From the IMG/VR virus record IMGVR_UViG_2698536418_000025: 11,003 nt of DNA; one strand, 5' to 3'. This DNA comes from a virus (taxonomy: Duplodnaviria > Heunggongvirae > Uroviricota > Caudoviricetes). Numbering within the stretch: the first letter of the stretch is position 1; each line of letters opens with the position of its first letter. Positions 107 to 11,003 of the stretch are shown here, one piece after another. Both the position numbers and the translations under genes were made by a program. The notes under the pieces were generated by a model. That model saw nothing but the letters and a program-made list of their open reading frames with translations. It did not search any database and had not been told where the DNA came from.

Positions 107-1267
107 TTATCTTCCTATTGCGATAATCATAGTTCCATACAAACCATTTCCGGTTGATACTTTTAAGGTTACTGATGTCCTTGTTGTCGTGTACCCCATA
201 AGTTTAAAGGTCGGAGCAGCGGTTAATGAGCCATCTGACCATAAGGCACTAACAGCCAGTGCGCCTGAAGGAAATGCAATAGGGAAATTACCTGTAGTTC
301 CGTTAGTGTCCGCCCCATAAACATTCATCGAAAACATTTGGACAATATGACCACTTGGTAACTGAAACCAGTTTTTGCCAGATGGAAATGCAGACATATC
401 TGGTATCTGATTTTCCCCTGTTCCCACATTCCGTTTTGCCGCTTCTCCCAAACCAAGGTAATCAAGAACTCCCTGAGTGCTGGTTTTACCAAGAATGGCA
501 CGTCCAACACTTGTCAACGCGGTTAACGCGGCACGATCTGCCCCTGTAAAATATGGGAGTTTATCTGCTGATGTAGCAAGCTCCGCCAGCGCCGTCAGGG
601 TGGCATCCTTCGGTTGCTTACCCGCAAGCGCGTTAGTCATGGTGGTCGCAAAATTCGGGTCATTGCCCAGCGCCGCAGCCAGTTCGTTCAGCGTGTTCAG
701 TGCATCAGGTGACGAATCTACAAGTGCGGCAATCGCGGCCATAACGAAAGCCGTGCTTGCGATCTGGGTACTATTAGTTCCCTGTGGCGCTGTTGGTGTT
801 GTTGGCGTTCCGGTCAGTGCCGGGCTGTTTAATGGTGCTTTCTTGTTCGTTTCATCCATTACCACCTTAACAGCTTTTGGTGTCGCTGCCAGCGTTTCAG
901 ACGTGCTGTTCGTGGCGCTACTGAGCTGAACAATCCCTTTTTGTATAGTGGTGGCGTTCTGGGCGGTATATTTCCCGTTAGCCAGGTCATATGCAGCCTT
1001 AACCGCTTTCGGTGTTGCGGCCAGTGTTTCTGATTCACTGTTAATTGCACTGCTTAACTGAGTAAAACCTTTTGCGGTCAGCGAGGCGTCCGGGTGACGT
1101 CGTGACTGTTCGTGCTCTGAGATTTTATCATCCACATATTTGCGGGTTGCCAGAACCACAGACGGGTCGATTTTCAGCGTGATAGCTTCGGTGTTCGTGA
1201 CAACCAGAATCATGCGGATAGTCTGGGTGCGTCCACTGCCTTCCTGCAACTGCGGTTTGATTCCCAT
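107..1267 (-). CDS. P2 gpH-like tail fibre protein, N-terminally truncated, with conserved shaft repeats and a distinct C-terminal receptor-binding domain
   Basis: The 386-aa ORF carries the repeated fibre motif SLTAKGFTQLSSAxNSxSETLAATPKAVK (twice), then VMDETNKKAPLNSPALTG, and a C-terminal domain ending ...GNGLYGTMIIAIGR. The reading frame is closed by TAA at 1307-1309, only 14 codons upstream of the first ATG, so the roughly 100-aa N-terminal region seen in full-length H-type fibres (as recalled) is absent. Confidence 0.8.
   Translation of the reverse strand: MGIKPQLQEGSGRTQTIRMILVVTNTEAITLKIDPSVVLATRKYVDDKISEHEQSRRHPDASLTAKGFTQLSSAINSESETLAATPKAVKAAYDLANGKYTAQNATTIQKGIVQLSSATNSTSETLAATPKAVKVVMDETNKKAPLNSPALTGTPTTPTAPQGTNSTQIASTAFVMAAIAALVDSSPDALNTLNELAAALGNDPNFATTMTNALAGKQPKDATLTALAELATSADKLPYFTGADRAALTALTSVGRAILGKTSTQGVLDYLGLGEAAKRNVGTGENQIPDMSAFPSGKNWFQLPSGHIVQMFSMNVYGADTNGTTGNFPIAFPSGALAVSALWSDGSLTAAPTFKLMGYTTTRTSVTLKVSTGNGLYGTMIIAIGR
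443..468. other. 26-bp Hin/Gin/Cin-type recombinase crossover site (site 1) inside the fibre gene at the shaft/variable junction
   Basis: TTCTCCCAAACCAAGGTAATCAAGAA has 12-bp imperfect inverted half-sites around a central AA, resembling hix (TTCTTGAAAACCAAGGTTTTTGATAA) and gix. It encodes LDYLGLGE in the fibre reading frame. Confidence 0.6.
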
Positions 1268-10411: not shown

Positions 10412-10672
10412 ATGTTCCGTTGTCCGCTTTGTGGCGCATCTGCCCGTATCCGCACCAGTCGTCCGGAAAATGATTCAAACACAGTGCGGCAAAAATATTA
10501 CCAGTGTAACAATCTGGAATGCGGCGTATGCTTCTCAACACTGGAAGCTTTCCATAAATTCACATCGAAACACGCTCCCGGCGTTCACTCTTCAGAGGGC
10601 ATCCCGTGGAATGAGCTGCCAGCTTCGCACAGGGGAAACAACCAGATGAGTTTGCCTTTACCTCAGAATTAA
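10412..10672 (+). CDS. ogr: Ogr/Delta-family zinc-finger late-gene transcriptional activator
   Basis: The 86-aa ORF begins MFRCPLCGASARIRTSR and has a second Cys pair in YYQCNNLECGVCF, giving a C-X2-C...C-X4-C zinc finger as in P2 Ogr. A strong AAGGGAGG Shine-Dalgarno lies 5 nt upstream. Confidence 0.85.
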   Translation: MFRCPLCGASARIRTSRPENDSNTVRQKYYQCNNLECGVCFSTLEAFHKFTSKHAPGVHSSEGIPWNELPASHRGNNQMSLPLPQN

Positions 10673-10732
10673 CAGGCAGAATTGCCGGAGTAACAAAAAA
10701 GCGATAGATTACGCGCGGGTGCCTTTCGGCTG

Positions 10733-10996
10733 ATGGTCGGAGGGAATACCCGAAGGCCAGATGTGGAAAGGCCCCGGAAAACATTTCTGTTTAACCGAGG
10801 CCCTAACCGCATTACCTTGACAAGTGAAAGGTTAGCGCCTCTCCGGAAAAGGAGCAAGTGCTATGTCGCAAAAATCGCTTACGGCCATCACGTTCTGCGT
10901 GACGGCAATCCTCATCATCTGGATGCTGCACGGTTCGCTGTGCGAAATACGGATGAGCTTCTGGGGAGCGGAGTTTGCGGCGTTCTTACAGTGTAA
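10733..10996 (+). CDS. Mok-like overlapping reading frame of the hok locus (start uncertain)
   Basis: The 87-aa ORF is in a different frame from hok, overlaps nearly all of it, and ends 7 nt before the hok stop, the geometry of mok in hok/sok loci. It has no recognisable sequence motif of its own. Confidence 0.3.
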   Translation: MVGGNTRRPDVERPRKTFLFNRGPNRITLTSERLAPLRKRSKCYVAKIAYGHHVLRDGNPHHLDAARFAVRNTDELLGSGVCGVLTV

Positions 10997-11003
10997 GCAG
11001 TAA
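10863..11003 (+). CDS. hok: Hok/Gef-family type I toxin (small membrane peptide)
   Basis: Hand translation gives MSQKSLTAITFCVTAILIIWMLHGSLCEIRMSFWGAEFAAFLQCKQ (46 aa): an N-terminal hydrophobic helix followed by SLCEIR and E-x-AAF motifs matching Hok family toxins (Hok R1 has ...SLCEIRYRDGHREVAAFMA). AAGGAG lies 8 nt upstream of the ATG. Confidence 0.75.
   Translation: MSQKSLTAITFCVTAILIIWMLHGSLCEIRMSFWGAEFAAFLQCKQ

What the first reader, a model, noticed from the sequence alone, without database searches (positions are those of the whole stretch)
10673..11003. Hok/Mok-type type I toxin locus immediately downstream of ogr, cut by the window edge
A 46-aa ORF with a transmembrane N-terminus and the Hok signature (SLCEIR...E-x-AAF) is overlapped by a longer out-of-frame ORF ending just before the hok stop, as mok does in hok/sok. 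A small antisense Sok RNA would be expected on the minus strand over the leader and mok start (about 10700-10870), but I could not pin its promoter by eye. The window ends exactly at the hok stop codon, so the 3' fold-back-inhibition element of the mRNA lies outside. Its position at the ogr-proximal end of a P2-like element raises the question of whether it is prophage cargo (addiction or abortive infection) or flanking host DNA at the attachment junction.
Basis: partly seen in the sequence, partly recalled or inferred. Interest (0 to 1): 0.55.

Follow-up and report, generated by a model that had tools for sequence, protein, structure and literature searches.

The report
Prophage-borne Hok toxin cassette
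The last 330 bases of the window hold a known, widely annotated Hok/Sok-type toxin cassette carried as cargo by a P2-like E. coli prophage; the call is correct but ordinary, except that the overlapping "mok" reading frame is not conserved.

Summary
Window 10863-11003 encodes a 46-aa Hok/Gef peptide (Pfam PF01848 29.9 bits, cut-off 22; PHROG 251 E 1e-22). RefSeq already annotates the identical protein as "Hok/Gef family protein". At least 1158 of 5426 complete E. coli genomes carry the ogr-hok unit.

The window is a P88-like (Xuanwuvirus) P2-type prophage between btuC and ihfA. The attR core lies about 265 bp beyond the window end. Relatives integrated at three other sites keep ogr-hok. So hok is phage cargo, not host DNA.

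With the 3' flank from an identical genome, the mRNA shows the hok architecture: 15-bp end-pairing (tac/fbi), an alternative tac/ucb hairpin, and a Sok-target hairpin. Compensatory changes across 33 homologues support these. A roughly 57-nt Sok-like antisense RNA is predicted at 10821-10765 (minus strand). Its promoter is only a weak consensus match and no transcript data were available.

The "mok" ORF (10733-10996) is not conserved. In 26 of 92 loci no canonical start leads into hok. In 42 of 92 a synonymous hok change puts a stop in that frame. None of 98 loci has a start codon 4-14 nt after the conserved GAGG.

Verdict: already known; low interest.

The parts
10412..10672 (+). ogr (late-gene activator); context gene. 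Its stop lies 10 nt before the hok promoter -35, with no terminator in between.
   Evidence: Pfam Ogr_Delta 52.3 bits; RefSeq annotation in the identical genome
10682..10710 (+). Candidate hok promoter: -35 TTGCCG (10682-10687), 17-nt spacer, -10 TAGATT (10705-10710). It matches 8 of 12 consensus positions and is inferred, not demonstrated.
   Evidence: Read from the sequence. The -10 hexamer and its 6-7 nt distance to GGGTGCC persist in homologues whose upstream DNA is unrelated (TAGAAT, TAAATT, TACATT, TACAGT). The consensus scan at 9 of 12 found nothing.
10717..10731 (+). 5' end of the hok mRNA, tac-like element GGGUGCCUUUCGGCU. It pairs either with the 3' fbi element (outside the window) or with ucb.
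   Evidence: The Rfam RF01794 match starts at 10717. The full-length MFE pairs positions 1-15 with 337-352. That helix is 97.6% paired in 33 homologues. RNAalifold and the fold of the truncated RNA pair 1-14 with 47-59.
10763..10775 (+). ucb-like box GUGGAAAGGCCCC. It pairs with tac in the truncated RNA; in the full-length RNA its GGCCCC closes the hairpin that holds GAGG.
10770..10802 (+). Sok-target hairpin (GGCCCCGG...CCGAGGCC). It includes the conserved GAGG (10797-10800) that corresponds to the R1 mok Shine-Dalgarno. Two sequence variants of the upper stem and loop exist among homologues.
   Evidence: the R1 GAGG is described in PMC9841398
10803..10827 (+). Most variable stretch of the locus. 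It is the target of the single-stranded 5' tail of the predicted Sok-like RNA. In the full-length mRNA, 10814-10827 pairs with a 3'-UTR box (L001 6738-6751, outside the window).
   Evidence: Helix 7: 12 pairs, 5 of them with compensatory changes. Pair list.
10765..10821 (-). Predicted Sok-like antisense RNA of about 57 nt: a 5' single-stranded tail of about 17 nt, then a 10+5 bp hairpin (10802 to 10770), then UUUCC. The ends are inferred.
   Evidence: Fold -26.4 kcal/mol, z -5.4. The position is homologous to R1 Sok in the alignment. No transcript data.
10829..10857 (-). Candidate Sok-like promoter on the minus strand: -35 TTGCTC (10857 to 10852), 17-nt spacer, -10 TAACCT (10834 to 10829). It matches only 6 of 12 consensus positions and overlaps the hok Shine-Dalgarno.
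   Evidence: Sequence. Both hexamers are nearly invariant in 33 homologues, and the -35 reads TTGACT in L008. The position was chosen to correspond to the R1 Sok promoter recalled from memory and located by eye in the R1-like sequence; it was not checked against a source. It was not found by the consensus scan.
10849..10854 (+). hok Shine-Dalgarno AAGGAG, 8 nt before the ATG. It is held in a local hairpin with CUCC (10841-10844).
   Evidence: helix 8, 96.7% paired
10863..11003 (+). hok coding sequence, 46 aa, Hok/Gef family membrane toxin.
   Evidence: Pfam 29.9 bits against a cut-off of 22; PHROG 251 at 80.6 bits; RefSeq WP_000078916.1 'Hok/Gef family protein'; 16 synonymous against 1 non-synonymous polymorphism among close alleles
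10733..10996 (+). It is present in this allele but not conserved, and is probably fortuitous.
   Evidence: no Pfam or PHROG match

Best explanation
This is a hok/sok-type type I toxin-antitoxin cassette carried as a moron by a P88-like (Xuanwuvirus, P2-type) prophage of E. coli. It sits between ogr and the phage attachment site.

Proposed mechanism, with shown and inferred steps marked:
1. A weak constitutive promoter (-10 at 10705-10710) gives an mRNA of about 400 nt starting near 10717. This is inferred from sequence and from where homology begins.
2. The full-length mRNA is locked by 15 bp of 5'-3' end pairing (tac 10717-10731 with fbi, 51-66 nt beyond the window). A second long-range helix hides the antisense target, and a local hairpin holds the hok Shine-Dalgarno. 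These are shown in silico, with covariation support.
3. Slow 3' trimming back to the G+C-rich hairpin just after the stop codon removes both 3' boxes. tac then re-pairs with ucb (10763-10775) and the antisense target opens. The refolding is predicted; the processing is inferred from R1.
4. A short-lived Sok-like RNA from the minus strand (about 10821 to 10765) pairs with the leader and triggers decay or silencing. This is inferred.
5. When antisense synthesis stops, the 46-aa Hok peptide is made, inserts in the inner membrane and kills or lyses the cell. Such a stop could follow loss of the prophage, transcription shut-off by an infecting phage, or prophage induction. This is inferred from family membership and from hokW-sokW of prophage Sp5.

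Unlike R1, no conserved mok leader frame is available to couple antisense control to hok translation. That link is unresolved.
For: Toxin identity:
- Pfam, PHROG and NCBIfam matches and the conserved residues.
- Purifying selection on the hok frame only.

RNA architecture:
- Rfam RF01794 matches the leader at 49.4 bits, E 9e-9, model positions 1-157.
- The full-length fold is -159.5 kcal/mol, z -6.3, with tac-fbi end pairing.
- In 33 homologues, 95.1% of cells are paired. 21 pairs show compensatory changes against 8.8 in shuffles (0 of 500 shuffles reach this), and only 4-11 in slid controls.
- RNAalifold and the fold of the truncated RNA switch to tac-ucb.
- The predicted unpaired probability of the antisense target rises from 0.21 to 0.48 on truncation.
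- The antisense candidate folds as a tail plus hairpin, z -5.4.

Cargo status:
- The prophage lies between btuC and ihfA, which are adjacent in K-12.
- A 25-bp duplicated core, AAAGAAAAAAGGCCGCAGAGCGGCC, sits at both junctions. attR starts 264 nt beyond the window end.
- ogr-hok is kept in P2-like prophages at ihfA, tRNA-Leu/pgsA, serS and a fourth site and in phage genome records.

Homology among cassettes in unrelated contexts runs from the -10 box to just past fbi, which is exactly the mRNA unit.

Precedent: hokW-sokW of Sp5 is a working prophage type I TA system (PMC8621323), and hok is enriched in prophages (bioRxiv 10.1101/2025.08.07.668861).
Against: - No transcript, toxicity or stability data exist for this locus.
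- Both promoters are weak consensus matches (8 of 12 and 6 of 12) and the scan found none at its threshold.
- The Rfam score is below the gathering score (49.4 against 59).
- The Sok-like RNA has only a UUU tail.
- No conserved mok-like frame exists, and the hok Shine-Dalgarno is predicted to stay mostly paired in both conformers (0.33 against 0.39). How Hok translation is switched on is therefore unexplained.
- The structure counted was derived from one of the aligned sequences, which inflates the percentage paired.
Confidence: 0.85

Rival explanations
1. It is a classical R1-type hok/mok/sok locus. The 87-codon ORF 10733-10996, or a shorter version starting at GTG 10763 or TTG 10817, is a true mok whose translation is needed for hok translation, and Sok acts by blocking it.
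For: The ORF is open in this allele and ends 7 nt before the hok stop, much as mok does in R1. The GAGG that serves as the mok Shine-Dalgarno in R1 is conserved here (PMC9841398). The hok Shine-Dalgarno is predicted to be paired in both conformers, which would fit a need for coupling.
Against: - 26 of 92 loci (18 of 44 distinct leaders in the tally), including all divergent lineages, have no canonical start in that frame upstream of hok.
- 42 of 92 loci carry a TGA in it, caused by a synonymous hok change.
- 0 of 98 loci (38 distinct 160-nt leaders) have ATG, GTG or TTG 4-14 nt after GAGG. An R1-type plasmid allele has ATG 8 nt after it.
- ATG 10733 has no Shine-Dalgarno and lies in the tac hairpin.
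- Polymorphisms are 14 non-synonymous plus 1 stop against 2 synonymous in that frame.
Confidence: 0.1
2. It is a decaying, non-functional relic, like several chromosomal hok loci of E. coli K-12, kept only by hitch-hiking with the prophage.
For: No functional data exist. The promoters are weak by consensus. There is no conserved mok. The prophage copy in strain RM19259 carries an IS1203 insertion elsewhere.
Against: - The hok frame is intact in all 98 loci examined.
- There are 16 synonymous against 1 non-synonymous polymorphism.
- Compensatory base changes keep long-range helices.
- The cassette has been picked up independently by P2-like and lambdoid/Stx phages and by an island.
Confidence: 0.05
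3. It is host chromosomal DNA flanking the prophage at the attachment junction, not part of the element.
For: It is the last gene before the window edge, and many provirus predictions stop there.
Against: K-12 has only 100 bp and no hok between btuC and ihfA. The duplicated att core lies 264 nt further on. The same ogr-hok unit occurs at other integration sites and in phage genome records.
Confidence: 0.01

Closest known systems
hok/sok (parB) of plasmid R1
   Same: Both have a small Hok/Gef membrane toxin with the conserved C, T, LCE and E residues. Both have a long structured leader and 5'-3' end pairing (tac/fbi) with an alternative tac/ucb hairpin. Both have a conserved GAGG after the antisense-target hairpin, a G+C-rich 3' hairpin followed by the fbi region, and an antisense RNA with a single-stranded 5' tail plus one hairpin opposite the leader (PMC9841398).
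   Different: The protein identity is only 39% over 31 residues, and the peptide is 46 aa rather than 52. There is no start codon after GAGG and no conserved mok frame. The spacer between the target hairpin and the hok Shine-Dalgarno is 7 nt shorter. The cassette is carried by a phage, not a plasmid.
hokW-sokW of Stx2 prophage Sp5 (E. coli O157:H7 Sakai)
   Same: Both are prophage-borne hok/sok-type type I TA systems. hokW-sokW has experimental evidence for toxicity, antisense control and a role in lysis after induction (PMC8621323). The databases label this peptide 'MokW-like host killing' (PHROG 251).
   Different: HokW is 51 aa, and its mRNA 5' end (GGGUGCUUGAGGCUAUCUGCC, from the paper's primers) belongs to a different leader type. 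Stx phages carry a separate copy of the 46-aa type next to lom.
HokA of E. coli K-12 (NCBIfam NF007290)
   Same: It is the best-scoring named equivalog (34 bits, E 2e-8).
   Different: The score is far below the equivalog cut-off of 89 bits, so this is not HokA.
The same cassette in other elements (46-aa Hok clade)
   Same: It shares 74-99% DNA identity over the whole mRNA unit. It occurs after lom/J in lambdoid and Stx phages, in the urease island of O157 next to an L31 paralogue, and in Salmonella and E. albertii.
   Different: The flanks, promoter -35 regions, terminators and antisense-target sequences differ, in step with the 3'-UTR box.

Membership tests
Hok/Gef toxin family (Pfam PF01848) | Profile score at or above the curated gathering score | tested here: met
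   29.9 bits against a cut-off of 22, E 4e-7; PHROG 251 at 80.6 bits
Hok/Gef toxin family (Pfam PF01848) | Peptide of about 50 aa with one N-terminal transmembrane helix and the conserved residues C16, T18, L30, C31, E32 and E41 (R1 numbering) | tested here: met
   46 aa; hydrophobic residues 5-22; C12, T14, L26, C27, E28 and E37 align to those residues (residue list from bioRxiv 10.1101/2025.08.07.668861)
Hok/Gef toxin family (Pfam PF01848) | Membrane depolarisation and cell killing when expressed | not testable with these tools
   Needs an inducible expression experiment
hok/sok type I TA locus (R1 paradigm) | mRNA with 5' tac and 3' fbi end pairing that closes the full-length RNA | tested here: met
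   15-bp helix in the MFE (z -6.3); 97.6% paired in 33 homologues, with 3'-side changes limited to G-C/G-U and U-A/U-G
hok/sok type I TA locus (R1 paradigm) | Alternative tac/ucb hairpin in the 3'-truncated RNA | tested here: met
   RNAalifold consensus and the MFE of the truncated RNA. The columns are almost invariant, so there is no covariation test.
hok/sok type I TA locus (R1 paradigm) | Short antisense Sok RNA opposite the leader, with its own promoter | tested here: inconclusive
   Tail-plus-hairpin fold with z -5.4. Hexamers TTGCTC-17-TAACCT are conserved but match only 6 of 12 positions and were missed by the scan. No expression data.
hok/sok type I TA locus (R1 paradigm) | Overlapping mok frame with a start codon just after its GAGG Shine-Dalgarno, translated up to the hok start | tested here: not met
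   0 of 98 loci have a canonical start 4-14 nt after GAGG. The frame is closed or has no start in 26 of 92 loci. The R1-type control shows ATG 8 nt after GAGG.
Rfam RF01794 (sok; the model covers the sense strand of the hok leader) | Covariance-model score at or above the gathering score | tested here: not met
   49.4 bits against a cut-off of 59, although E is 9e-9 and the full model length is matched
HokA equivalog (NCBIfam NF007290) | Score at or above the equivalog cut-off | tested here: not met
   34 bits against a cut-off of 89
P2-like prophage cargo (moron) | Lies inside the att-bounded element and travels with it to other integration sites | tested here: met
   att core duplication and the empty site in K-12; ogr-hok at four integration sites and in phage records

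The most novel reading that the evidence does not exclude
The 46-aa Hok clade may be a natural mok-less variant of hok/sok. It keeps tac, ucb, fbi, the antisense-target hairpin and even the former mok Shine-Dalgarno GAGG, but has no leader reading frame. Antisense control would then act on hok without translational coupling, for example by RNase III-mediated decay alone, or through the three-codon GUG mini-frame at 10824-10835 that most alleles keep. The cassette also marks the inner edge of a variable cargo slot between ogr and attP of P88-like phages. The two P2 hotspot papers I checked by term search (PMC9122126, PMC13586616) do not mention hok, and PMC9122126 does not mention ogr.
Probability: 0.35. 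Interest if true: 0.35.

Novelty: already known. Interest (0 to 1): 0.17.

Why it matters
It matters little beyond correct annotation. The peptide is already named Hok/Gef in RefSeq and in phage records. Prophage enrichment of hok has been reported, and a prophage hok/sok system (hokW-sokW) has been characterised.

Two small points could be of use to specialists:
- A very common Hok clade has no conserved mok frame. The latest survey of Hok diversity left Mok unanalysed, so this clade offers a natural test of whether coupling to a leader frame is essential.
- Provirus predictions routinely cut this cassette at the hok stop. That loses the 3' regulatory elements and about 265 bp of phage DNA up to attR.

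Tried and rejected
1. A mok-independent switch. I supposed that refolding after 3' trimming frees the hok Shine-Dalgarno directly. Ensemble calculations give unpaired probabilities of 0.33 (full length), 0.39 (truncated) and 0.33 (antisense-bound), and 0.04-0.29 in six homologues with little change. The idea is not supported.
2. Identity with hokW. I rejected this because the peptide length and the leader both differ.
3. HokA equivalog. The score is below the cut-off.
4. Host-DNA reading. I rejected this.
5. The consensus promoter scan of the locus found no site at its threshold, so both promoters rest on hand-read hexamers and conservation.
6. A conserved alternative upstream frame. The ATG at 10761 and the GTG at 10824 are widely kept. 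However, they fall in different frames in different alleles, or are missing in L005 and L008, so neither is universal.
7. The scan of species-representative genomes gave only 6 loci. These were Salmonella (two), E. albertii, and three in unlikely hosts (a Planococcaceae MAG, Vagococcus, and an 857-bp Xanthomonas contig), which are probably contamination.
8. Literature searches for hok together with ogr or with phage P88 found nothing. The two P2 hotspot papers I searched do not mention hok.
9. PADLOC has no model that matches the peptide.

Full report
**What is there**

Window 10863-11003 (+) is a 46-codon ORF whose stop codon is the last triplet of the window. The peptide is MSQKSLTAITFCVTAILIIWMLHGSLCEIRMSFWGAEFAAFLQCKQ. 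It matches Pfam HOK_GEF above the gathering score (29.9 bits against 22) and PHROG 251 "MokW-like host killing" at 80.6 bits. Its best NCBIfam match is the HokA equivalog, but far below its cut-off (34 bits against 89).

Residues 5-22 are an uncharged hydrophobic stretch. In a BLASTP alignment to R1 Hok, six residues line up with the positions conserved in more than 80% of Hok peptides: C12, T14, L26, C27, E28 and E37 (residue list from bioRxiv 10.1101/2025.08.07.668861). The upstream gene, 10412-10672, is ogr (Pfam Ogr_Delta 52.3 bits). The out-of-frame ORF 10733-10996 is present as described.

**Where it comes from**

The last 704 bases are 100% identical to E. coli RM19259 and JP538, and 99.9% identical to several O157:H7 strains. 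1158 of 5426 complete E. coli genomes carry at least 80% of the ogr-hok query, and RefSeq annotates [quoted passage not shown] under the match. The hok unit alone is found at 80% coverage or more in 1677 genomes. Phage records of the genus Xuanwuvirus (P88, P884B11 and others) hold the same unit at 95-97% identity.

**Cargo or host DNA**

In RM19259 the prophage of about 36 kb lies between btuC and ihfA. In K-12 these two genes are separated by only 100 bp, with no hok. A 25-bp core, AAAGAAAAAAGGCCGCAGAGCGGCC, is present at both junctions; it is the ihfA terminator. The right copy starts at L001 6968, which is 264 nt beyond the window end.

P2-like prophages integrated next to ihfA, tRNA-Leu/pgsA, serS and a fourth site all keep ogr-hok. 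The locus is therefore phage cargo.

The window ending exactly at the stop codon is probably an artefact of provirus trimming. 47 of 80 related IMG/VR contigs end at the same base.

**The mRNA**

I used the 3' flank from the identical genome (L001; window coordinate = L001 coordinate + 4299). Rfam RF01794 matches 10717-10876 on the + strand over its full length (49.4 bits, E 9e-9, below the gathering score of 59). The model's consensus carries the hok Shine-Dalgarno and AUG, so it models the sense leader rather than Sok itself.

Homology among cassettes in unrelated contexts begins at a -10 hexamer and ends just after a GGCACCC-type box about 60 nt past the stop. The -10 here is TAGATT (10705-10710); elsewhere it is TAGAAT, TAAATT, TACATT or TACAGT.

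The 358-nt RNA from 10717 to that box folds at -159.5 kcal/mol (z -6.3). It has three notable helices:
- A 15-bp helix between its first 15 nt and L001 6754-6769 (tac/fbi).
- A second long-range helix between 10814-10827 and L001 6738-6751.
- A local hairpin that holds the Shine-Dalgarno AAGGAG.

Counted on 33 distinct homologues, 95.1% of cells are paired. 21 pairs show changes on both sides, against 8.8 in shuffles (0 of 500 shuffles reach this) and 4-11 in slid controls. The second long-range helix alone has five such pairs. One caveat is that the structure was derived from one of the aligned sequences.

RNAalifold on the same alignment, and the MFE of an RNA cut just after the G+C-rich 3' hairpin, pair the 5' end with 10763-10775 instead (tac/ucb). 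The predicted accessibility of the antisense target rises from 0.21 to 0.48 on truncation. This is the R1 architecture as summarised in PMC9841398.

**The antisense RNA**

On the minus strand, TTGCTC (10857-10852), a 17-nt spacer and TAACCT (10834-10829) occupy a position I chose to correspond to the R1 Sok promoter. That promoter I recalled from memory and located by eye in the R1-like sequence; I did not check it against a source. The hexamers are nearly invariant, and the -35 reads TTGACT in one homologue.

A transcript from about 10821 to 10765 would have a free 5' tail of about 17 nt and a strong hairpin (-26.4 kcal/mol, z -5.4). The tail lies opposite the most variable part of the locus, and that part covaries with the 3'-UTR box.

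This evidence is suggestive only. The hexamers match 6 of 12 consensus positions, they overlap the hok Shine-Dalgarno, and the scan found no promoter at its threshold. No transcript data were available.

**The mok question**

- Among 92 loci (44 distinct leaders in the tally), 26 have no ATG, GTG or TTG in the +2 frame upstream of hok after the last stop. Where starts exist, they sit at different places.
- 42 of 92 loci have a TGA in that frame, created by a synonymous TGC to TGT change in hok codon 27.
- Among close alleles the polymorphisms are 16 synonymous to 1 non-synonymous in the hok frame. In the +2 frame they are 2 synonymous, 14 non-synonymous and 1 stop.
- Homologues in Salmonella and E. 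albertii behave the same way.
- The GAGG that serves as the mok Shine-Dalgarno in R1 is conserved (10797-10800). However, none of 98 loci (38 distinct 160-nt leaders) has a canonical start 4-14 nt after it. An R1-type plasmid allele, analysed the same way, has ATG 8 nt after GAGG.

The 87-codon ORF in this window is therefore most likely fortuitous.

I tested the idea that refolding frees the hok Shine-Dalgarno directly. The ensemble calculation does not support it (0.33 against 0.39 unpaired). How hok translation is activated in this clade remains open.

**Relation to known systems**

It works like hok/sok of R1 and is a member of the Hok/Gef family. It is not hokW of prophage Sp5, which is 51 aa with a different leader (PMC8621323), and it is not HokA.

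The same 46-aa cassette also sits after lom/J in lambdoid and Stx phages and in the O157 urease island. Hok enrichment in prophages and thousands of IMG/VR copies have been reported. That survey explicitly left Mok aside (bioRxiv 10.1101/2025.08.07.668861).

**Function**

I commit to a type I toxin-antitoxin moron. Its likeliest benefits are prophage retention or exclusion of other phages, or help with lysis on induction as shown for hokW-sokW. None of these is tested here.

**Verdict**

The mok part of the interpretation does not hold. The cargo question is settled in favour of cargo.

Noticed in passing
[not shown]
   Followed up: partly
window 395-1259, with the recombinase ORF at 2025-2624: This segment of tail-fibre and assembly genes is inverted relative to the otherwise near-identical prophage of strain RM19259. 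It lies next to a gene that RefSeq calls 'recombinase family protein'. It looks like a Gin/Cin-type invertible host-range switch caught in the other orientation.
   Followed up: partly
beyond the window end: L001 6827-6967; also L005 2932-4100, L010 1930-2800, L012 1880-3300, L002 3750-4379: The slot between the hok terminator and attR/attP holds different genes in different P88-like phages. It is nearly empty here. Elsewhere it holds a Com regulator plus a DNA methyltransferase, a 93-aa hypothetical protein, zinc-ribbon proteins, or an 80-aa hypothetical protein in P88. It is a variable cargo slot. Of the two P2 hotspot papers I searched, neither mentions hok and one does not mention ogr.
   Followed up: partly
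window 10717-10876 (+): The Rfam family RF01794, named 'sok antitoxin', matches the sense strand of the hok leader. Its consensus includes the hok Shine-Dalgarno and AUG. A hit to it therefore marks the hok 5' UTR, not the antisense RNA's own strand.
   Followed up: no
L015-L094 (IMG/VR loci): 47 of 80 related viral contigs end exactly at the hok stop codon, as this window does. Provirus boundary calling seems to cut at the last called gene. That loses the hok 3' UTR and about 265 bp of phage DNA up to attR.
   Followed up: yes
L001 6912-7000 (-), across attR: There is a partial match to the enterobacterial sRNA family STnc540 (36.6 bits against a gathering score of 38, cut at the search edge). 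It spans the att core and the phage end. This suggests the phage integrates into, and rebuilds, the 3' end of an ihfA-proximal sRNA or terminator.
   Followed up: no
L014 (R1-type plasmid allele), 57 nt upstream of hok: In this IncFII plasmid copy, which encodes a Hok identical to the 52-aa sequence I recalled from memory as R1 Hok and used as the query, the ATG 8 nt after GAGG is in frame with hok rather than out of frame. Even among R1-type loci the frame of the leader ORF is not fixed; only its start is.
   Followed up: no
L004 8370-9961 (RM19259 prophage early region): An IS1203 (IS3-family) element splits a DNA-binding protein gene next to the integrase and repressor region. This prophage copy may be defective for regulation or induction.
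   Followed up: no
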